Below, piece after piece: positions 11,653-18,053 of a DNA stretch of 18,073 nucleotides; the stretch's first letter is position 1, and every line of letters starts with the position of its first letter. The notes beneath the pieces are model-generated. The model did not search any database. It had not been told where the DNA came from and was given only the letters and a program-made list of their open reading frames with translations. The stretch is from IMG/VR virus record IMGVR_UViG_2690316325_000011, positions 1-18,073 of that record. One strand, written 5' to 3'. Position numbers and translations under genes: made by a program. Source of the DNA: a virus. Taxonomy: Duplodnaviria; Heunggongvirae; Uroviricota; Caudoviricetes.

Positions 11653-12264
11653 TTAATTTCCTGCTTTCAGTTGCTTAAGACGGCGTTTGAGTTCGCCATT
11701 TCGGGCCTTTTCGTTATTGAGTCGGCCTGTCTCCTTATCCAGCTTCGCCCGCAAATCAGTGATCTGCTGTTGATTGAAAGACACCGAGTTCTGCGCTGAT
11801 TTATAAGCGGCAACCACCTGAGCATTCCGCTGTTTTGCCTCTTGCAGGCGCTGAAAGTTGGATTTTACTGCCGGTTTCTTGTCTACCGGATTGGCAACAC
11901 GTTTCGCTTTGGCGATCAGTGATTTCTGGAATTTTGCGGAGTTTTTGCGGGCCGCTTGCCCCATGACGGTACCAAGCGTCTTGATATCCGGCGATTGAGC
12001 GTTAGGAATAGCTTTTCCATTCAGCCTCACAGACGATATATCGCCAGTATCGTTTACCTGTATGGCAAGAATTTGTCCGTCGTTAAGAACCAGCTTTGCG
12101 GTTTTAACTTTAACGCCATCTTTCGTTGTTGCGCGGTTGCTGGAGTCAACCTCAATTACCGTAACACCGGTTTTATTGATCGCCGCGATAAGGGATTTCA
12201 GCCCCTTTTCATTAACCTGGTCAAAATCGACCGTTGCATACTTATTTTTCGTCATCTGACACAT
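11653..12264 (-). CDS. hdf: Hdf-like protein (homolog of a DarA fragment)
   Basis: 203 aa with motif DGQILAIQV...GQAARKNSAKFQKSLIAKAK, shared with the DarA-like protein (KNSAKFQ core). Its stop abuts the DarA-like start (TAACATGG). Confidence 0.55.
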   Translation of the reverse strand: MCQMTKNKYATVDFDQVNEKGLKSLIAAINKTGVTVIEVDSSNRATTKDGVKVKTAKLVLNDGQILAIQVNDTGDISSVRLNGKAIPNAQSPDIKTLGTVMGQAARKNSAKFQKSLIAKAKRVANPVDKKPAVKSNFQRLQEAKQRNAQVVAAYKSAQNSVSFNQQQITDLRAKLDKETGRLNNEKARNGELKRRLKQLKAGN

Positions 12265-12685
12265 CCTGTGCGAGATTTATTACGTAACTTCTGCGGATTT
12301 GCTGAGTAACAGGGAAAATCCGATACAACGGGTTAATGAACGAGTCGCCATGCGTAACCATGACGTTGAAATGCCACAGTCGCTCTCCTTTACCCATATA
12401 TTCAGTGGGTATGTACAACCATTCACTGTTTTCGCCCTGTTCAGCCGACGTCAAACAACGTTGTTCGCCTTCAATCACTGTCGTCGGCTTCTGAACATCG
12501 CGGATCCAATATCTGACCGTTGCGCCGCGCAAAAACGGGAATTTAGACCGGTATTTGAACGGCACCCGGATGAAACCCGGTTTAATTTCCACATCACCAA
12601 GTTCTAAATGCGTGATGTCCTTGCGTTTTAGCAAATAGCGATCGGCTAAGGCTAACGCAAGAACGCATACACCCCAGCCAATCAT
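12242..12685 (-). CDS. lydB: LydB-like putative antiholin / lysis regulator
   Basis: 147 aa with one N-terminal hydrophobic segment (MIGWGVCVLALALA). Start overlaps the holin-like gene stop (ATGA). Position matches lydA-lydB order in P1. Confidence 0.45.
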   Translation of the reverse strand: MIGWGVCVLALALADRYLLKRKDITHLELGDVEIKPGFIRVPFKYRSKFPFLRGATVRYWIRDVQKPTTVIEGEQRCLTSAEQGENSEWLYIPTEYMGKGERLWHFNVMVTHGDSFINPLYRIFPVTQQIRRSYVINLAQDVSDDEK

Positions 12686-13011
12686 TTCCCGCCTCCCTTT
12701 TTCACCAAACTTGTAAGAACATTCAGAATGCTATCGATATTCACTCGTTTCATCCCTGAAATCACCTCATGACCGTTATTGCTGGCTATCGTTACCATTA
12801 AGTACGTAATTGATAACTCCCAGCCCTCGTGTTGCCCCAATAGGTACGCCACCGCGCCAGCTGTCACTGCAACAAAGATCTCCGTAACCAATCCCAACAA
12901 ATTGCCAGACTGGCGACCGTCTCGGACATCCATCAGGAACGTGCCTATCCCACCAATTACTGAAAGCAGGAGCGCAATAGCAACTGGAGCTAATTCCTGT
13001 GTGTCAAGCAC
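12682..13011 (-). CDS. lydA: LydA-like holin
   Basis: 109 aa; GTG start with AGGAGGG SD. Two to three predicted transmembrane segments (LAPVAIALLLSVIGGIGTFLM, IFVAVTAGAVAYLLG) and charged C-terminus (KKGGGK). Confidence 0.5.
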   Translation of the reverse strand: MLDTQELAPVAIALLLSVIGGIGTFLMDVRDGRQSGNLLGLVTEIFVAVTAGAVAYLLGQHEGWELSITYLMVTIASNNGHEVISGMKRVNIDSILNVLTSLVKKGGGK

Positions 13012-13085
13012 AAGTTCCCTCCTACGTTGTCAGGAGGTAATGGTATGCAAAGTAACTTCTCAACCGGTTATGTTGCATAAGAGAC

Positions 13086-13349
13086 TTACCTATTCAACCG
13101 ACTTTTGGAACCTTCAATAATAAGCCTGCTATTGGCGCTGAAAATAAGAACCATGCAGCTCTGAAGGCTTTCATTCATATCCTTATATTCCGCGAGATAC
13201 ATGCCAATAAAGCCAGCAAGTACGGCGGAAATACATTCGGCCAGCAATTTCTTGCATGAAGACTCGTAACGGTTTTCACATAGCCCACTCAAATACGAAT
13301 ACACCCCACCAAGAAGGGATAACATCACGATATGTACATAAAATGTCAT
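13086..13349 (-). CDS. Small two-segment membrane protein (holin-like), first gene of the minus-strand operon
   Basis: 87 aa; ATG at 13349 with AGGT SD. Hydrophobic segments HIVMLSLLGGVYSYL and AVLAGFIGMYL. Confidence 0.45.
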   Translation of the reverse strand: MTFYVHIVMLSLLGGVYSYLSGLCENRYESSCKKLLAECISAVLAGFIGMYLAEYKDMNESLQSCMVLIFSANSRLIIEGSKSRLNR

Positions 13350-13476
13350 TTTTTACCTATACAACAGTAAGTTGAACAACATCTGAGAACGGTATGCACT
13401 TTGTGATTTCCACACACACTGGTTTTGTTAATTAAAACCTGTAGCTTGCAATAAATAACGATAGTGGGCAGAAAAT

Positions 13477-13662
13477 ATGCTAATAGGCTATGTACGCATA
13501 TAGACAAATGAACAAAACACAGCTATGCAGTGAAAAGCACTTGAAAGCGCAGGATGTGAGCTAATTTTTGCGAATAAGGCGAGCAGCAAAAAGGCTGGGC
13601 ACCTTGGGTTAAAAAAGGTTCTGCGTATGCTTTCCAGAGGTGATACCCTAGTCTCGGGCTAG
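13477..13662 (+). pseudogene. Decayed 5' fragment of a Cin-like DNA invertase gene, convergent with the intact invertase
   Basis: Reads MLIGYVRI*TNEQNTAMQ*KALESAGCELIFANKASSKKAGHLGLKKVLRMLSRGDTLV with in-frame stops at 13501 and about 13531, then loses frame after about 13656. It matches the Gin/Cin N-terminus and differs from the neighbouring intact invertase (NEQNTA versus NDQNTD). Right boundary approximate. Confidence 0.6.
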
Positions 13663-13784
13663 GGACAACATTTCGAGGACAGTTTTCATTAGCGGTCAGC
13701 AGGCGCTAGATACATCGAATTGATGTGCCGCGCGATAAATGTACCTATTCTATCAAGATAAATTACACCGACGCGGCATTAGAA

Positions 13785-14357
13785 TTACAGCTCAGATTGA
13801 GTTTGGCGCTTCTCTACAGGATGATAACGATAAATCGTCGATACACCGATATCGTAAATAATTGCCAACTGTTTCCTGCTGTAGCCATTTTCGATCAACC
13901 TCGCTATTTGCTCATGTTGTTCTTTTGTCAACTTCGGGCGACGTCCGCCAATGCGTCCCTGTTCGCGTGCAGCTGCCAGTCCGGCCAGTGTTCTCTCAAC
14001 AATTAATTCACGTTCCATTTCTGCTAAAGCCCCCATGACGTGAAAAAAGAAACGCCCCATGGGTGTTGATGTGTCAATACTGTCTGTCAGACTACGGAAA
14101 TTAACACCTTTTTCCCGCAACTCCTCTATAAGCGTGATAAGGTGTTTCATACTTCTGCCAAGCCTATCCAGCTTCCAGACAACCAGCGTATCTCCTTCTG
14201 ATAACGTTCTGAGCAGCTTTTTCAAGCCTGGTCTGGCTGACTTTGTTCCGCTTATTTTATCTTCAAAAATCAGTTCACATCCTGCGCAGTTCAGTGCATT
14301 TCTTTGTAAATCTGTGTTTTGGTCATTTGTTGACACACGAATGTAGCCAATTTGCAT
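13785..14357 (-). CDS. Site-specific DNA invertase (Hin/Gin/Cin/Pin/Min family serine recombinase)
   Basis: 190 aa from ATG at 14357 (AAGAGG about 9 nt upstream; the track's 14366 start is a TTG). Catalytic N-terminus MQIGYIRVSTNDQNTDLQRNAL, core motifs GDTLVVWKLDRLGRS and SPMGRFFFHVMGALAEMERELIVERT, C-terminal HTH (GVSTIYRY). Adjacent to crossover sites. Confidence 0.93.
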   Translation of the reverse strand: MQIGYIRVSTNDQNTDLQRNALNCAGCELIFEDKISGTKSARPGLKKLLRTLSEGDTLVVWKLDRLGRSMKHLITLIEELREKGVNFRSLTDSIDTSTPMGRFFFHVMGALAEMERELIVERTLAGLAAAREQGRIGGRRPKLTKEQHEQIARLIENGYSRKQLAIIYDIGVSTIYRYHPVEKRQTQSEL

Positions 14358-14411
14358 GAAAAACAACCTCTTTGTTTAGTTAAAAATACATCGTTGGTAT
14401 AGGTAGGGATT

Positions 14412-14437
14412 AAGACTAAAACGTTGGTTTGGGGGAA
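14412..14437 (+). other. Crossover site 1 (26-bp Gin/Cin-type inversion site), in the invertase promoter region
   Basis: AAGACTAAAACG-TT-GGTTTGGGGGAA. The right half and TT core are conserved with the other sites; the left half is divergent. Lies 55 to 80 bp upstream of the invertase ATG. Confidence 0.7.
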
Positions 14438-14890
14438 GGCTCTGCACTGCCTGTTGGTGTGCCCGTTCCGTGGCCCTTAGAAACACCGCCAACGGGGTGG
14501 CTGAAATGTAACGGAGCAGCATTTTCTTCTGAAAAGTACCCAAATCTGGCAAAGGCTTACCCTACTAATAAATTGCCTGATTTACGCGGTGAATTTATTC
14601 GTGGCTGGGATGACGGACGTGGTGTGGATGCCGGGCGACAATTATTATCTTCACAGGGGGATGCAATAAGAAATATTGAGGGATTCGCAGATGGCGGGAT
14701 CGGTATGTCTTTTGATGCAATCAGAGGGGCTTTTTACGATGCAGGAACACGATCAGCGAGAATGCCGAATAACACAACTACTATAGACAAAACCGATGAC
14801 CTTGGATTCGACGCCTCTCGTGTCGTGCCAACAGCTAATGAAAACCGTCCTCGTAATATTGCCTTTAATTATATCGTAAGGGCGGCATAA
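14426..14890 (+). CDS. Promoterless tail-fibre C-terminal (receptor-binding tip) cassette A
   Basis: Coding frame begins at the first base right of the site-1 core, with no ATG or SD (track start is TTG). Conserved 5' module GEGSALPVGVPVPWP..TPPTGWLKCNGAAFSSEKYPNLAK.YPT.KLPDLRGEFIRGWDDGRG (tail-collar-like), variable middle, conserved end RPRNIAFNYIVRAA, stop TAA inside the left half of site 2. Confidence 0.8.
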   Translation, partial: GLGEGSALPVGVPVPWPLETPPTGWLKCNGAAFSSEKYPNLAKAYPTNKLPDLRGEFIRGWDDGRGVDAGRQLLSSQGDAIRNIEGFADGGIGMSFDAIRGAFYDAGTRSARMPNNTTTIDKTDDLGFDASRVVPTANENRPRNIAFNYIVRAA

Positions 14891-14909
14891 AAACGTTGGT
14901 TTGGGGGAA
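14884..14909 (+). other. Crossover site 2
   Basis: GGCATAAAAACG-TT-GGTTTGGGGGAA. The left half contains the cassette A stop codon. Confidence 0.75.
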
Positions 14910-15466
14910 GGCTCATCAGCTCAGTAGTGCCACTAACAGCACGTCTGAAGTGCTGGCCGCCACACCGAAAGCTGTCAAGGCTGCATATGACCTGGCTAAC
15001 GGGAAGTATACAGCCCAGGATGCAACCACGACACAAAAAGGGATAGTTCAGCTCAGTAGCGACACCAACAGCACTTCTGAAACATTAGCTGCAACGCCAA
15101 AAGCGGTTAAAGCTGCATACGATCTAGCAGCCGGAAAGGCACCATCCAGTCATACACATCCCTGGAATCAGATCACTGGTGTGCCAACAGCTTCATTGAC
15201 AGCGAAAGGCATCACTCAGCTCAGTAGTGCCACTAACAGCACGTCTGAAGTGCTGGCCGCTACACCGAAAGCTGTCAAGGCTGCATATGATTTGGCTAAT
15301 GGAAAGCAAGCGGCAGACGCTACGCTCACTGCTCTAGCGGCACTAGCTACCGCAGCAGATAAACTCCCTTATTTCACAGGGGTTGATCGTGCCGCGTTAA
15401 CTGCACTGACAAGTGTTGGACGTGCAATTCTTAGTAAGCCCAGTATTCAGAGCGTTCTTAATTACC
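14898..15466 (+). other. Captured fragment of a tail-fibre constant region carrying three tail-fibre repeat units
   Basis: Open frame encoding three copies of QLSS(A/D)TNSTSE(V/T)LAATPKAVKAAYDLA; nucleotide copies at 14917..14990 and 15217..15290 are identical except for one base. It ends ...LNYL at site 3. From site 2 in the cassette frame the reading is GLGEGSSAQ then stop (TAG 14925..14927), so it is not a functional cassette. Confidence 0.6.
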
Positions 15467-15480
15467 TTGGTTTAGGGGAA
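15455..15480 (+). other. Crossover site 3 (constant/variable junction type; most symmetric site)
   Basis: TTCTTAATTACC-TT-GGTTTAGGGGAA. Left half resembles Gin/Cin-family half-sites (TTC.T..A..ACC) and is coding (LNYL) with no stop, unlike sites 2, 4, 5 and 6. Confidence 0.7.
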
Positions 15481-15975
15481 GGCTCGGCGCTGCCCGTTGG
15501 TGTACCTGTTCCATGGCCCTCAGCCACACCACCAACGGGGTGGCTGAAATGTAACGGAGCAGCATTTTCTTCTGAAAAGTACCCAAATCTGGCAAAGGTT
15601 TACCCAACGTTAAAATTACCTGATTTACGCGGTGAGTTTATCCGTGGTTGGGATGATTCGAGAGGGATTGATACAGGGCGTTCATTGCTAAGTGGTCAGA
15701 CTGCAACATTTATTCGTACAGCTTTGCAGGATTATTACGGTGTCGATCTGACTACTAATGTCAAAGTAGGTATCGCTTATGCTACTGCTGATTCTGTTAT
15801 AACTGTTGGAAACCCTGCTAATCCTAAAGCAGGAGATAATAGCGATTATGTTCCAGCATCATCAGATAACTCCATAACAGGCACTCAAAGGACGGCAGAG
15901 GATAATTTTACCGGGGCATGGATATCAATGCGCCCCCGCAACGTTGCTTTTAATTACATCGTAAGGGCAGCATGA
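15469..15975 (+). CDS. Promoterless tail-fibre C-terminal cassette C (3' part of track ORF 14896..15975)
   Basis: Same conserved 5' module and RPRNVAFNYIVRAA end as the other cassettes; distinct variable middle; stop TGA inside the left half of site 4. Confidence 0.8.
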   Translation, partial: GLGEGSALPVGVPVPWPSATPPTGWLKCNGAAFSSEKYPNLAKVYPTLKLPDLRGEFIRGWDDSRGIDTGRSLLSGQTATFIRTALQDYYGVDLTTNVKVGIAYATADSVITVGNPANPKAGDNSDYVPASSDNSITGTQRTAEDNFTGAWISMRPRNVAFNYIVRAA

Positions 15976-15994
15976 AAACGTTGGTTTGGGGGAA
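15969..15994 (+). other. Crossover site 4
   Basis: AGCATGAAAACG-TT-GGTTTGGGGGAA. Confidence 0.75.
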
Positions 15995-16453
15995 GGCTCA
16001 GCATTGCCCGTTGGCGTGCCCGTTCCGTGGCCATCAGCCACACCTCCAACGGGGTGGCTGAAATGCAATGGTGCAGCATTTTCTTCTGAAAAGTACCCAA
16101 ATCTGGCAAAGGTTTACCCCACTAATAAATTGCCGGATCTACGGGGCGAATTTATTCGCGGCTGGGATGACGGGCGGGGGATTGACTCTGGCCGTAATTT
16201 ATTATCTGCACAGAATGATGCAATTCAGAATATTGTTGGTTCTTTCGGGCGTACTCAGCTTTTTAGAGATGTACTTAGTTCAGGGCCATTTAGTCAACAT
16301 GGTCAAGTATTATCTACAGGCCTAAAGGAAACGGAAATTATTGAGGGTTATGGCTCTTATAACTGGACATTCGACGCCTCTCGCTCAGTTCGTACAGCAT
16401 CTGAAACCCGCCCCCGTAATATTGCGTTTAATTATATCGTAAGGGCGGCATAA
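15983..16453 (+). CDS. Promoterless tail-fibre C-terminal cassette D
   Basis: Conserved 5' module, distinct variable middle, conserved RPRNIAFNYIVRAA end, stop TAA inside site 5. Confidence 0.8.
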   Translation, partial: GLGEGSALPVGVPVPWPSATPPTGWLKCNGAAFSSEKYPNLAKVYPTNKLPDLRGEFIRGWDDGRGIDSGRNLLSAQNDAIQNIVGSFGRTQLFRDVLSSGPFSQHGQVLSTGLKETEIIEGYGSYNWTFDASRSVRTASETRPRNIAFNYIVRAA

Positions 16454-16472
16454 AAACGTTGGTTTGGGAGAA
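16447..16472 (+). other. Crossover site 5
   Basis: GGCATAAAAACG-TT-GGTTTGGGAGAA. Confidence 0.75.
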
Positions 16473-16961
16473 GGCTCTGCATTACCTGTTGGTGTCCCTG
16501 TTCCGTGGCCTTCAGCCACTCCGCCAACAGGCTGGCTGAAATGCAACGGTGCAGCATTTTCTTCTGAAAAGTACCCAAATCTGGCAAAGGTTTACCCCAC
16601 TAATAAATTGCCGGATCTACGGGGCGAATTTATTCGCGGCTGGGATGACGGGCGGGGGATTGATCCAGGTCGCTCTATTTTAAGCGAGCAAGGATATGCA
16701 ACGGAGGATCATGCTCACGGATTACCGTCAAAATCAACCGTAGCAACTGACAGCTCAATTAATTTCTACTTTGACGAGGCATGGGCTACTAGTGGTAATA
16801 CGGGAGTTATCAGATGGGGGAACACAAGCGATGCAGGATTGCCAGCCCCTAATTATGGAACTTTTAAAACATATAAACAGTCCGTAGCTAATTTAGGTAC
16901 TGCTGGCTTAGAAACCCGCCCTCGTAATATTGCATTTAATTATATTGTGAGGGCGGATTAA
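16461..16961 (+). CDS. Promoterless tail-fibre C-terminal cassette E
   Basis: Conserved 5' module (near-identical to cassette D over roughly 120 bp), distinct variable middle containing EDHAHG, end RPRNIAFNYIVRAD. Stop lies 5 bp from the convergent tail-fibre assembly gene stop. Confidence 0.8.
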   Translation, partial: GLGEGSALPVGVPVPWPSATPPTGWLKCNGAAFSSEKYPNLAKVYPTNKLPDLRGEFIRGWDDGRGIDPGRSILSEQGYATEDHAHGLPSKSTVATDSSINFYFDEAWATSGNTGVIRWGNTSDAGLPAPNYGTFKTYKQSVANLGTAGLETRPRNIAFNYIVRAD

Positions 16962-16966
16962 TTATA

Positions 16967-17578
16967 TCAACTGGCTGTAGAAAGTTGTTTTTCAGGCCAG
17001 TTGAGATCTGGTGCCGTGGTTAAATCCATCGCGTTCAGCTCGTCTATATAATCTAGCACGGAGTTAAGCTGCGTGGTTTCTGCCTGCGTCAACTTCCGTC
17101 CAGCCCGTAATTTCAACTGAATCAGACTAATGGAATCCATCGCAGTATCAATCAATGACTGACGTTTTGTTTCTGCTGCCTCTACAGCTGCACTATGTTG
17201 AGCCTCAGTATCAACCACCCATTTCTCTCCATCCCATTTGTCGTATGGTGTTAGCGGGGCGATAGTGGTTGTATTTTCCGGATAGTCACCCAACACCGTG
17301 ATTTCTTCGGGATTCCCTGTGTCAATGCTATAGACAGTTTCGCCACGATGATCTGGCACATACTCCCATGAACTTAAATCCTCTGAACGGAGAATCGCAT
17401 AACCTGCTTTATGTGAGCCTGGAGCATCCAAACAAGAATGTGCCGGAATACCAACGCCAACAGCAAGATATTCAGTTGATGCAGAAATATATTCCCGATT
17501 ACCACCATCATAGTTATAAACGATAATGTTTCCTGCCTGTATGGCTATAAGTTCGCTATTTAATATCGCATTATCCAT
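16967..17578 (-). CDS. Tail-fibre assembly protein (Tfa/U-like chaperone)
   Basis: 203 aa; ATG overlaps the cassette F stop (TAATG), so it is translationally coupled. C-terminal region ...LDYIDELNAMDLTTAPDLNWPEKQ is typical of caudoviral tail-fibre assembly proteins as I recall. It is the only such gene in the window. Confidence 0.8.
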   Translation of the reverse strand: MDNAILNSELIAIQAGNIIVYNYDGGNREYISASTEYLAVGVGIPAHSCLDAPGSHKAGYAILRSEDLSSWEYVPDHRGETVYSIDTGNPEEITVLGDYPENTTTIAPLTPYDKWDGEKWVVDTEAQHSAAVEAAETKRQSLIDTAMDSISLIQLKLRAGRKLTQAETTQLNSVLDYIDELNAMDLTTAPDLNWPEKQLSTAS

Positions 17579-18039
17579 TATGCTGCTCTCACAATATAAT
17601 TGAAGGCAATGTTACGTGGGCGGGTTTCATTCCCCCCAGATAACTCCGTTCTGTATTGACTGGTAAATTTACCATTAATCGCTCCTTCTTGGACGGCGTT
17701 ATCTGTCGACAACAGGCTATCCCCCCCTCTGTCATTTGGCACCAATACCGTGTTATCCCACGCGTCCCATGACCGAATATTATGATAATGACTTCCTGTT
17801 AACCACCCCTGTATGCTTAAGATGACCCTTCCCGCATCCACACCTCGCCCATCATCCCAACCACGGATAAACTCACCGCGTAAATCAGGTAATTTTAACG
17901 TTGGGTAAACCTTTGCCAGATTTGGGTACTTTTCAGAAGAAAATGCTGCGCCATTGCATTTCAGCCACCCCGTTGGCGGTGTTTCTAAGGGCCACGGAAC
18001 GGGCACGCCAACGGGCAGTGCAGAGCCTTCCCCCAAACC
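17578..18039 (-). CDS. Tail-fibre C-terminal cassette F (minus-strand array, followed by the assembly gene)
   Basis: Begins at the core of the inverted site 6; conserved 5' module, distinct variable middle, conserved RPRNIAFNYIVRAA end. Its 5' module is a patchwork of A-like and C-like sequence. Confidence 0.8.
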   Translation of the reverse strand, partial: GLGEGSALPVGVPVPWPLETPPTGWLKCNGAAFSSEKYPNLAKVYPTLKLPDLRGEFIRGWDDGRGVDAGRVILSIQGWLTGSHYHNIRSWDAWDNTVLVPNDRGGDSLLSTDNAVQEGAINGKFTSQYRTELSGGNETRPRNIAFNYIVRAA

Positions 18040-18053
18040 AACGTTTTTATGCC
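18028..18053 (-). other. Crossover site 6, inverted relative to sites 1-5
   Basis: Reverse complement reads GGCATAAAAACG-TT-GGTTTGGGGGAA. Its left half contains the stop codon of a further minus-strand cassette. Confidence 0.75.

What the first reader, a model, noticed from the sequence alone, without database searches (positions are those of the whole stretch)
14426..18039. Cassette 5' modules are a patchwork of shared blocks
The roughly 210-bp conserved 5' module differs between cassettes in blocks rather than randomly. D and E are near-identical over roughly 120 bp. F follows A for its first 75 bp or so, then D over AAATGCAATGG, then matches C over GGTTTACCCAACGTTAAAATTACCTGATTTACGCGGTGAGTTTATCCGTGGTTGGGATGA. 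This points to gene conversion between cassettes that keeps an invariant collar-like module and diversifies the tips. The long repeats also make the locus prone to deletion and assembly error.
Basis: seen in the sequence. Interest (0 to 1): 0.5.

Follow-up and report, generated by a model that had tools for sequence, protein, structure and literature searches.

The report
Mosaic tail-fibre cassettes, P1-like invertible locus
This is the well-known kind of invertase-driven tail-fibre switching locus of a P1-like phage-plasmid. The block-wise patchwork in the conserved start of each cassette is real and is the footprint of ordinary homologous recombination between cassettes, not a new mechanism.

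Summary
Five cassettes (A, C, D, E, F) begin with a ~211-nt conserved module. Their differences fall in blocks: D=E for 116 nt exactly, C=F for 99 nt, A=F for 50 nt; permutation test p~0.001.

The locus is a multiple-inversion tail-fibre switch of the p15B Min kind, on a P1-like phage-plasmid. A Gin-like serine invertase (13785-14357, -) sits beside six 26-nt crossover sites, L12-TT-GGTTTGGGGGAA. Module and tip lie on the same side of the crossover, so the invertase cannot make the mosaic.

In 59 cassettes from 11 related plasmids, the same tip (0.3-2% divergent) carries module 5' parts that differ by 8-10%. Linkage to the tip decays from 1.0 to ~0.16 towards the site.

Two window events are patches bounded on both sides, with unchanged candidate donors in the same locus. 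E carries a D-type tract of 103-116 nt. F carries a 13-50-nt tract shared with A. This fits gene conversion.

The idea that conversion keeps the module invariant fails. Synonymous divergence between modules is 0.27-0.59 against 0.00-0.07 non-synonymous. Modules within one plasmid are no more alike than modules from different plasmids. Tips are not diversified.

Verdict: a real feature, an ordinary member of a known kind, of low to moderate interest.

The parts
13785..14357 (-). Serine DNA invertase gene of the Din family (Gin/Cin/Pin/Min type), 190 aa
   Evidence: Pfam Resolvase 2e-51 plus HTH_7. E = 4e-92 to the solved structures of 'DNA-invertase' 4m6f and 3uj3, aligned over residues 1-185. 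The exact sequence is on >=1000 contigs and is the UniRef representative Q05517_ECOLX 'DNA-invertase'.
14412..14437 (+). Crossover site 1 (AAGACTAAAACG-TT-GGTTTGGGGGAA), at the start of cassette A
   Evidence: Pattern search: 5 matches, 0 expected by chance. Site table. The 12-2-12 layout is read by analogy with hix/gix/cix sites, from memory.
14426..14890 (+). Cassette A (silent): 5' module to ~14628, then the tip, ending in the conserved ...RPRNIAFNYIVRAA stop
   Evidence: ORF 14429-14890. Collar domain 4e-15. Tip type 3 is present in 6 of the 11 relatives.
14884..14909 (+). Crossover site 2 (GGCATAAAAACG-TT-GGTTTGGGGGAA). Its left half contains the stop codon of cassette A.
14910..15454 (+). 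Segment B: a copy of the last ~575 nt of the constant part of the tail-fibre gene S (three Phage_fiber_2 repeats), joined out of frame to site 2
   Evidence: 99.5% identity to the 3' end of the constant part of S in relatives. Phage_fiber_2 3e-54. The junction is absent from PLSDB, complete E. coli genomes, IMG/VR and JGI metagenomes.
15455..15480 (+). Crossover site 3, of the S-junction type (TTCTTAATTACC-TT-GGTTTAGGGGAA; reads ...NYL|GLGEGS)
   Evidence: The same 'YLGLGEGS' junction ends the constant part of S in every relative.
15469..15975 (+). Cassette C: module to ~15671, then the tip
   Evidence: tip type 4
15969..15994 (+). Crossover site 4 (AGCATGAAAACG-TT-GGTTTGGGGGAA)
15983..16453 (+). 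Cassette D: module to ~16185, then the tip. Candidate donor of the tract 16070-16185.
16447..16472 (+). Crossover site 5 (GGCATAAAAACG-TT-GGTTTGGGAGAA)
16461..16961 (+). Cassette E: module to ~16663, then the tip. 16548-16663 is identical to D and is the converted tract. No site follows its stop codon.
   Evidence: This module and tip combination is unique in PLSDB, where the best match is 94.9%.
16967..17578 (-). Tail-fibre assembly (chaperone) gene, downstream of cassette F
   Evidence: Caudo_TAP 3e-30. Annotated as tail fiber assembly protein in relatives.
17578..18039 (-). Cassette F: module 18039 down to ~17837, then the tip. It carries a 13-nt patch identical to A (module columns 59-71), inside the 50-nt exact run shared with A (module columns 42-91, 18006-17957).
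   Evidence: The identical mosaic is found at 100% in CP090076.1.
18028..18053 (-). Crossover site 6 (GGCATAAAAACG-TT-GGTTTGGGGGAA on the - strand). Bases 18047-18073 are the 3' end of a further cassette on the - strand, cut by the window end.
   Evidence: Inverted repeat I5 is 51 nt and 100% complementary.
13477..13653 (+). Pseudogene fragment of a second invertase (codons 1-59, two in-frame stops)
   Evidence: tblastn: 61% identity, E = 1e-21. Translation.

Best explanation
The region is the multiple-inversion tail-fibre switch of a P1-like phage-plasmid, of the same kind as Min of plasmid p15B.

A Gin-like serine invertase recombines 26-nt sites (12-nt half-site, TT core, GGTTTGGGGGAA). One of several promoterless 3' cassettes is thereby fused in frame at ...NYL|GLGEGS... 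to the constant part of tail-fibre gene S. Each cassette has three parts. It starts with a ~211-nt module encoding about 70 residues of a collar domain that is nearly invariant at protein level. A receptor-binding tip of ~210-290 nt follows. It ends with a ~50-nt conserved block (RPRNIAFNYIVRAA).

The patchwork inside the module is not made by the invertase, because module and tip lie on the same side of the crossover. It is the footprint of general homologous recombination between the ~85% identical modules of different cassettes. This includes short non-reciprocal patches (heteroduplex or mismatch-repair type gene conversion, 13 to ~116 nt here) and crossovers. The exchanges occur within a locus or between co-resident related elements.

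The protein sequence is conserved by purifying selection, so most exchanged variants are synonymous and the mosaic is largely neutral.

Shown: the locus anatomy, the mosaic, its statistical support, the decoupling of module from tip across plasmids, and the two-sided bounded tracts. Inferred: the enzymology (RecA or a phage recombination function), where the donor sat, and that the site core is the TT.
For: Identity of the locus:
- The invertase has Resolvase and HTH_7 domains and matches the solved 'DNA-invertase' structures 4m6f and 3uj3 at E = 4e-92.
- The surrounding genes are P1-type: DarA equivalog at 1091 bits, holins, and the R/16/baseplate genes in relatives.
- 314 PLSDB records cover >=80% of window 1-14400, many at 99.2-99.5% identity. 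Those listed are 90-100-kb, mostly non-mobilizable IncY-type plasmids.
- Six sites match the site pattern, against 0 expected by chance.
- Near-identical plasmids carry the same cassettes in different orders, orientations and expressed positions.

The mosaic is real:
- PHI-type p~0.001, with 149 of 406 site pairs incompatible.
- Exact shared runs of 116, 99, 67 and 50 nt.

Recombination rather than mutation:
- The same tip type differs by 0.3-2% between plasmids, while the module 5' block attached to it differs by 8-10%.
- The association of module columns with tip identity falls monotonically from 1.0 to ~0.16 with distance from the tip.
- Linkage between module columns decays from 0.41 at <=10 nt to 0.10 at >90 nt.

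Patch events:
- E against L003-E: 20 differences, all within 103 of 509 nt (P~7e-14), where E equals D.
- F against L010-F: 5 differences, all within 13 of 470 nt (P~6e-7), where F equals A.
- D and A are unchanged relative to their own relatives, with 2 module differences each.

Not an assembly artefact in general: identical mosaics recur in independent assemblies, and F's mosaic occurs at 100% in CP090076.1.

Purifying selection: mean pN/pS ~0.1, and 52 of 71 variable sites are at codon position 3.
Against: - No experiment was done. The crossover core and the activity of the invertase are inferred from similarity and from isomeric arrangements in relatives.
- Intralocus conversion predicts that modules within one plasmid should resemble each other more than modules from different plasmids. 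They do not (11.03 against a permuted 10.44 differences). Many exchanges may therefore be reciprocal or between elements.
- E's particular mosaic is unique among 72,556 plasmids, so it has no independent confirmation.
- Consensus polishing of repeats in database assemblies could add some false mosaics to the population data.
Confidence: 0.8

Rival explanations
1. Concerted evolution. Frequent intralocus gene conversion homogenises the 5' modules and thereby keeps the collar module invariant while the tips diverge.
For: Two non-reciprocal, two-sided tracts have candidate donors in the same locus: D to E and A to F. Long exact runs are shared between cassettes of the window.
Against: Synonymous divergence between modules of the same locus is 0.27-0.59, against 0.00-0.07 non-synonymous. 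Different-tip modules within a plasmid are, if anything, slightly more different than between plasmids (p for 'more similar' = 0.98-0.99). There are 42 distinct block-I haplotypes among 59 cassettes. Tips of one type are nearly identical between plasmids, so they are not being diversified.
Confidence: 0.1
2. The mosaic comes mainly from reciprocal crossovers. These could occur between inverted modules in one locus, which would be RecA-mediated inversions that mimic invertase switching but with a displaced junction. They could also occur between arrays of different co-infecting P1-like elements. Gene conversion would play only a minor part.
For: There is no within-plasmid homogenisation, and divergence within a plasmid is slightly in excess, as expected if variants are re-dealt without replacement. 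Decoupling from the tip grows smoothly with distance, as uniform crossovers would give. The short 3' block decays at a similar rate per nucleotide. Cassette content differs greatly between backbones that are 99.2-99.5% identical, which implies exchange or turnover between elements.
Against: The two events that can be resolved in this window are internal patches with both flanks unchanged and with the candidate donor cassette unchanged. A single reciprocal crossover cannot give that. Linkage decays within tens of nucleotides, which would need very many crossovers.
Confidence: 0.35
3. Assembly or polishing artefact. Chimeric modules are produced when reads from a population of inversion isomers and from ~85% identical repeats are assembled or polished.
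For: The locus is repetitive (211-nt modules, 300-nt shaft repeats) and heterogeneous in vivo. Some database arrays show obvious homopolymer frameshifts, for example L005. E's mosaic and the B junction are unique to this window.
Against: Invertase switching never separates a module from its tip, so isomer mixtures do not create ambiguity there. Identical mosaics recur in independent assemblies from different countries and hosts, including F's exact mosaic. The D-type tract in E is a duplicated sequence rather than a collapse, which assemblers do not normally create. No shared k-mer exists at the B junction.
Confidence: 0.08
4. No recombination. Shared blocks arise from parallel mutation at a limited number of synonymous sites under codon constraint.
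For: Most variable sites are third-codon positions with few allowed states.
Against: Compatible sites are spatially clustered (PHI-type p~0.001). Cassettes with 0 tip differences differ at 20 sites confined to 103 nt (P~7e-14). Exact runs of 99-116 nt occur in a background of ~85% identity.
Confidence: 0.01

Closest known systems
Min multiple DNA inversion system of plasmid p15B of E. coli 15T- (Sandmeier, Iida, Arber and co-workers 1990-1992; cited in PMC5903667 and PMC11850598, details from memory of the abstracts)
   Same: It sits on a P1-related plasmid prophage. A Din-family serine invertase gene lies next to a cluster of overlapping invertible segments. There are about six crossover sites. 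Alternative 3' parts are fused to one constant, repeat-rich 5' part of a tail-fibre gene. A truncated second invertase gene lies beside the active one, seen here at 13477-13653. PMC6906374 reports a related P1-like plasmid whose invertase is 98.5% identical to Min of p15B.
   Different: I could not retrieve the p15B sequence (X62121), so identity to Min, the mix sites and the p15B cassettes was not measured here. This window also has an extra out-of-frame copy of the S 3' end (B-C) inside the array. Arrays in relatives hold up to 8 cassettes rather than 6.
Cin/C-segment of phage P1, Gin/G-segment of Mu, Pin/P-segment of e14
   Same: They share the invertase family (E = 4e-92 to solved 'DNA-invertase' structures), the 12-2-12 site layout, and the logic of swapping the tail-fibre C-terminus together with a tail-fibre assembly gene. 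The S junction ...NYLGLGE... is also the one used by a P1/P7-type relative (L009).
   Different: Those systems have two sites and two alternative tips. This one has six or more sites and at least six cassettes, and only one assembly gene within the array.
Mosaic evolution of phage tail-fibre genes by recombination at conserved sequence blocks (Haggard-Ljungquist 1992 and Sandmeier 1992/1994, from memory; relaxed homologous recombination between phages, PMC3945230)
   Same: Conserved segments that flank variable receptor-binding parts serve as homology for exchange. This produces mosaics in which the conserved part and the tip have different histories.
   Different: Here the exchange partners are paralogous silent cassettes of one switching locus and their alleles in sister plasmids. 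The mosaic is resolved down to tracts of 13-116 nt.
R64-type shufflon (Rci tyrosine recombinase, sfx sites, PilV tips)
   Same: It is a multiple-inversion cluster that selects one of several C-terminal segments for a constant N-terminal part of an adhesin.
   Different: The recombinase here is a serine invertase and the sites are symmetric 12-2-12. The target is a phage tail fibre, not a conjugative pilus adhesin.
Silent-cassette gene conversion systems (for example Neisseria pilE/pilS, Borrelia vlsE)
   Same: Silent promoterless cassettes share conserved blocks, and short non-reciprocal tracts are transferred between copies.
   Different: In those systems conversion into the expression site is the switching mechanism and it diversifies the variable part. 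Here switching is by site-specific inversion, and the observed tracts lie in the conserved module and are mostly synonymous.

Membership tests
Din-family serine DNA invertase system (Hin/Gin/Cin/Pin/Min) | A small serine recombinase of ~190 aa, with an N-terminal catalytic domain and a C-terminal helix-turn-helix | tested here: met
   Resolvase 2e-51 plus HTH_7 3.5e-15. Aligned over residues 1-185 to solved 'DNA-invertase' chains 4m6f and 3uj3 at E = 4e-92.
Din-family serine DNA invertase system (Hin/Gin/Cin/Pin/Min) | 26-nt crossover sites made of two 12-nt half-sites around a 2-nt core, present in both orientations around the invertible DNA | tested here: met
   There are six sites, L12-TT-GGTTTGGGGGAA, five on the + strand and one on the - strand, against 0 expected by chance. 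The match to the hix/gix/cix consensus (..AAACC-NN-GGTTT..) is judged from memory. The cleavage position was not determined.
Din-family serine DNA invertase system (Hin/Gin/Cin/Pin/Min) | A Fis-dependent recombinational enhancer in cis, usually inside the 5' part of the invertase gene | not tested
   No reference enhancer sequence or Fis-site model was available in the tools.
Din-family serine DNA invertase system (Hin/Gin/Cin/Pin/Min) | The DNA between sites is actually found in alternative orientations | tested here: met
   Plasmids whose backbone is 99.2-99.5% identical show the E-tfa-F unit in both orientations. Five different cassettes (F, A, C, t6, t8) are found fused to S. No read-level evidence exists for this particular plasmid.
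p15B Min-type multiple inversion locus | More than two crossover sites that define overlapping invertible segments, with several alternative 3' gene parts for one constant 5' part of a tail-fibre gene | tested here: met
   The window has six sites and five full cassettes plus one cut cassette. The constant part of S with the ...NYLGLGEGS junction is seen in relatives. The constant part itself lies beyond the window end.
p15B Min-type multiple inversion locus | Sequence identity to min, the mix sites and the p15B cassettes (EMBL X62121) | not testable with these tools
   The p15B record is not in the searchable collections and the original papers are not held. The only indirect evidence is PMC6906374, which reports 98.5% identity to Min for a related plasmid, and the psi-invertase fragment found here.
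P1-like phage-plasmid | P1 backbone genes in P1 order around the invertase locus | tested here: met
   DarA equivalog at 1091 bits. Holins, lysozyme, ssb and head-processing genes lie under the 99% matches. R, gp16 and baseplate genes lie beyond S in relatives.
Phage tail collar domain (Pfam PF07484) | The module protein passes the Pfam gathering score | tested here: met
   All five cassettes score 53-56 bits against a cut-off of 24.
R64-type shufflon | A tyrosine recombinase (Rci) and asymmetric sfx sites | tested here: not met
   The only recombinase present is of the serine type.
Cassette systems kept uniform by concerted evolution (intralocus gene conversion) | Paralogous repeats within one locus are more alike than repeats from different loci, with low synonymous divergence | tested here: not met
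   Within-plasmid pairs differ at 11.03 sites, against 10.44 after permutation. pS is 0.27-0.59 within the window.

The most novel reading that the evidence does not exclude
The synonymous divergence between modules of one locus may be selected, not merely tolerated. pS reaches 0.59 on a nearly invariant protein, and modules within a plasmid are slightly more different than random draws. Arrays whose modules are too alike would be lost through RecA-mediated deletion between direct repeats. Surviving loci would then keep a 'codon-scrambled' set of modules, while rare short-patch exchanges continually re-deal the variants. Alternatively, or in addition, the 5' module and the 3' block could act as homology arms for capturing new tips from other phages, making the locus a recombination-based cassette-acquisition platform on top of the inversion switch.
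Probability: 0.12. Interest if true: 0.5.

Novelty: new member of a known kind. Interest (0 to 1): 0.25.

Why it matters
It matters little for new biology. The switching system (Min, Cin and Gin type) and the mosaic evolution of tail-fibre genes have been known since about 1990.

It has practical uses:
- It shows that in P1-like phage-plasmids, which are common carriers of resistance genes, the receptor-binding tips are stable units. Their conserved 5' module is freely reshuffled.
- Tips, not whole cassettes, should therefore be used for typing host-range determinants.
- Module sequence cannot be used to infer cassette ancestry.
- These loci need single-molecule reads to be assembled reliably.
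- The clean decay of linkage over ~200 nt gives a natural measure of homologous exchange between ~85% identical repeats.

Tried and rejected
- The invertase as the cause of the mosaic. Rejected because module and tip lie on the same side of the TT core, and because exchange points are spread along the module with no single hot spot.
- Conversion started by breaks at the crossover site and spreading both ways. Not supported. The last nucleotides of the 3' block, just left of the site, stay 0.7-0.9 linked to their own tip. The first module columns, just right of the site, are only 0.1-0.3 linked. Distance from the tip explains the gradient, not distance from the site.
- F returning to an A-like sequence at alignment columns 219-222, read as a second breakpoint. 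Rejected because those variants are fixed in all copies of both tip types.
- Chi sites as recombination hot spots. There are none in 13.6-18.07 kb.
- B as a P1-type long variable segment. Rejected because the P1/P7-type relative uses the same NYLGLGE junction.
- Finding the source record or the B junction elsewhere. There is no contiguous match in PLSDB, complete E. coli genomes, IMG/VR or JGI metagenomes. The exact-protein look-up found only an ordinary S gene on a gapped metagenome scaffold.
- The original p15B papers could not be read.

Full report
**1. What is at the coordinates**

Positions 13785-14357 (- strand) encode a 190-aa serine recombinase. It has Pfam Resolvase and HTH_7 domains. 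It aligns over residues 1-185 to the solved 'DNA-invertase' structures 4m6f and 3uj3 at E = 4e-92.

To its right lie ORFs that each begin ...GLGEGSALPVGVPVPWP... and end ...RPRNIAFNYIVRAA:
- A: 14429-14890 (+)
- B-C: 14896-15975 (+)
- D: 15986-16453 (+)
- E: 16464-16961 (+)
- F: 17578-18036 (-)

A tail-fibre assembly gene, 16967-17578 (-), follows F (Caudo_TAP). Every cassette start hits the Pfam phage tail Collar domain.

Each cassette is preceded by the same 26-nt sequence, L12-TT-GGTTTGGGGGAA. Five copies are on the + strand and one on the - strand, against none expected by chance. From memory, this has the 12-2-12 layout of hix, gix and cix sites. The stop codon of the preceding cassette lies in the left half-site.

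The last 27 bases of the window are the 3' end of a further cassette on the - strand (inverted repeat I5).

**2. Where the window comes from**

Bases 94-14400 match 314 plasmid records over >=80% of their length, many at 99.2-99.5% identity. Those listed are 90-100-kb, mostly non-mobilizable E. coli, Klebsiella and Salmonella plasmids typed IncY or 'IncHI1B'. The genes include the DarA antirestriction head protein, holins, lysozyme and head-processing genes.

In relatives, beyond the cassette array, come a long tail-fibre gene and then homologues of P1 R, gp16 and baseplate genes.

So this is a P1-like phage-plasmid, and the array is the variable 3' end of its S tail-fibre gene. The constant part of S lies beyond the right end of the window.

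**3. Evidence that the array inverts**

I fetched the locus from eleven relatives. From these and the window I extracted 67 module hits, 59 intact cassettes and 12 tip types.

With the invertase gene as the fixed point, the arrays are different isomers. For example:
- L011: C> A> E> F< D< t8< t5< t6*<
- L008: t9> C> F> E< A< t5< t6< t8*<

The E-tfa-F unit occurs in both orientations. Five different cassettes (F, A, C, t6, t8) are found fused to S at ...NYL|GLGEGS.... Arrays hold from 1 to 8 cassettes.

This is the behaviour described for Min of p15B: a cluster of overlapping invertible segments that assembles a variable tail-fibre gene. That description is from my memory of the Sandmeier 1990-1992 abstracts. 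The papers are cited in PMC5903667 and PMC11850598 but could not be read. PMC6906374 reports a P1-like plasmid whose invertase is 98.5% identical to Min.

**4. The observation**

The alignment of the five full modules confirms each statement of the finding. Exact shared runs are:
- D=E: 116 nt (16070-16185 = 16548-16663)
- C=F: 99 nt (15559-15657 = rc 17949-17851)
- A=C: 67 nt
- A=F: 50 nt (14459-14508 = rc 18006-17957)

All five modules share a 40-nt invariant core (module columns 99-138).

Of 29 informative sites, 149 of 406 pairs are incompatible. Compatible sites cluster along the sequence (PHI-type permutation p = 0.0006-0.006). Triplet runs tests reach p = 0.0004.

One correction is needed: 'B' has no module, only the half-site plus GGCTC.

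**5. What makes the mosaic**

The crossover dinucleotide lies 5' of the module. Invertase switching therefore moves module and tip together and cannot create chimeric modules.

The population data show that the two parts nevertheless have different histories:
- Copies of one tip type differ by 0.3-2% between plasmids. The module 5' block (columns 10-111) attached to them differs by 8-10%.
- The table of variable sites shows one tip carrying several unrelated block types.
- The chance-corrected share of a column's variation explained by tip identity falls smoothly. It goes from 1.0 beyond column 225, through 0.72 (176-200), 0.44 (126-150) and 0.27 (76-100), to 0.16 next to the site.
- Linkage between module columns decays from 0.41 at <=10 nt to 0.10 at >90 nt.
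- The short conserved 3' block stays 0.7-1.0 linked to its own tip. This fits a roughly uniform exchange rate per nucleotide of homology. It argues against exchange that starts at the crossover site.
- There is no Chi site in the region.

**6. Two resolvable events in this window**

Event in E:
- E is identical to the E of L003 and L008 over all 509 nt, with 0 tip differences, except for 19-20 differences.
- All of these lie between module columns 101 and 203 (P~7e-14 under uniform scatter).
- In that tract E is identical to the window's own D.
- D itself is like the D of L006 (2 module differences), so the candidate donor is unchanged.

Event in F:
- F is identical to the F of L010 over 470 nt, with 0 tip differences, except for 5 differences in a 13-nt patch (P~6e-7).
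- This patch changes WPSATPP to WPLETPP and is identical to the window's A.
- The flanking A/F differences limit the tract to <=50 nt.

Both events are internal tracts with both flanks unchanged. That is, they are non-reciprocal patches or double exchanges, and so they resemble gene conversion.

F's exact mosaic recurs at 100% in an unrelated assembly, CP090076.1. E's mosaic is unique in PLSDB, where the best match is 94.9%.

**7. What the recombination does not do**

Between modules of this one locus, pS is 0.27-0.59 and pN is 0.00-0.07. Over all 59 cassettes pN/pS is ~0.1, and 52 of 71 variable sites are at third codon positions. The module is therefore conserved as a protein by purifying selection, not by homogenisation of the DNA.

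Different-tip modules in the same plasmid are not more alike than modules from different plasmids. They differ at 11.03 sites, against a permuted mean of 10.44 (sd 0.29). The share of near-identical pairs is 0.021 within plasmids and 0.022 between them.

So concerted evolution is not supported. Much of the reshuffling may be reciprocal or may occur between elements. The tips are not being diversified by this process.

**8. The anomalous B-C unit**

Positions 14908-15480 are 99.5% identical to the last ~575 nt of the constant part of S in relatives, including the normal S junction site. That part of S consists of 300-nt tandem repeats whose copy number varies between plasmids.

In the window this piece sits inside the array on the + strand, behind a canonical site. 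It is joined 17 nt to the right of the core (...GGGGGAAGGCTC|ATCAGCTCAG...). It is in a frame that would terminate a fusion after LGLGEGSSAQ.

The junction cannot be an invertase product. It is absent from PLSDB, complete E. coli genomes, IMG/VR and JGI metagenomes. An exact-protein look-up found only an ordinary S gene on a gapped scaffold.

My guess is an illegitimate unequal exchange that duplicated the 3' end of S behind a downstream site. An assembly chimera is not excluded, although no shared k-mer exists at the junction.

**9. Comparison and verdict**

The system works like Min of p15B, and by every feature I could test it belongs to that kind and to the wider Din invertase family. Identity to the p15B sequence itself, and the Fis enhancer, could not be tested.

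The mosaic is an instance of the long-known recombination of tail-fibre genes at conserved blocks, here resolved to short tracts between paralogous silent cassettes.

The finding is real. Its proposed role is wrong: it neither maintains the collar nor diversifies the tips.

Novelty: a new member of a known kind. Interest: 0.25.

Noticed in passing
window 13477-13653 (+): A fragment of a second invertase gene. It covers codons 1-59, is 61% identical to the active invertase, and has two in-frame stops. It is convergent with the active gene. It recalls the truncated psi-win gene described next to min in p15B (from memory).
   Followed up: partly
window 13666-13701 (-): A relic of a cassette 3' end ('TANENCPRNV', 83% complementary to 14826-14861). 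It lies just past the invertase pseudogene fragment, outside the present array. It looks like a fossil of an older arrangement.
   Followed up: no
window 14884-15975 (+): The B-C unit is an out-of-frame copy of the last ~575 nt of the constant part of S plus cassette C, placed inside the array behind a canonical site. Its junction was not found in any searched collection. Its origin is unexplained.
   Followed up: yes
window 14916-15306; L001-L011 S genes: The constant part of S is built of 300-nt tandem repeats (Phage_fiber_2 motifs). Their copy number differs between otherwise 99% identical plasmids, with annotated S genes of 1857-3222 nt. Fibre length therefore varies by repeat gain and loss.
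   Followed up: partly
L002 (CP083412.1, Salmonella Typhi plasmid ph681355) 2631-5403: ISEcp1 with blaCTX-M-15 is inserted inside the tail-fibre cassette array of this P1-like plasmid, between two silent cassettes.
   Followed up: no
window 16461-18053: There is only one tail-fibre assembly gene in the array. In every relative that carries both cassettes it lies between E and F (E> <tfa <F). E has no crossover site after its stop codon and ends in ...VRAD. How the other tips obtain a chaperone is unclear.
   Followed up: no
window 1-93: The first 93 bases are not covered by the 99%-identical relatives, whose matches all start at base 94.
   Followed up: no
L005 (NZ_CP142951.1) and L004 (CP090076.1) arrays: Several cassettes in these records are frameshifted or fused. 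Examples are GGGGG read as GGGG at the site, and a cassette read through into tfa. These are probably homopolymer errors of long-read assemblies, and a warning for population analyses.
   Followed up: no
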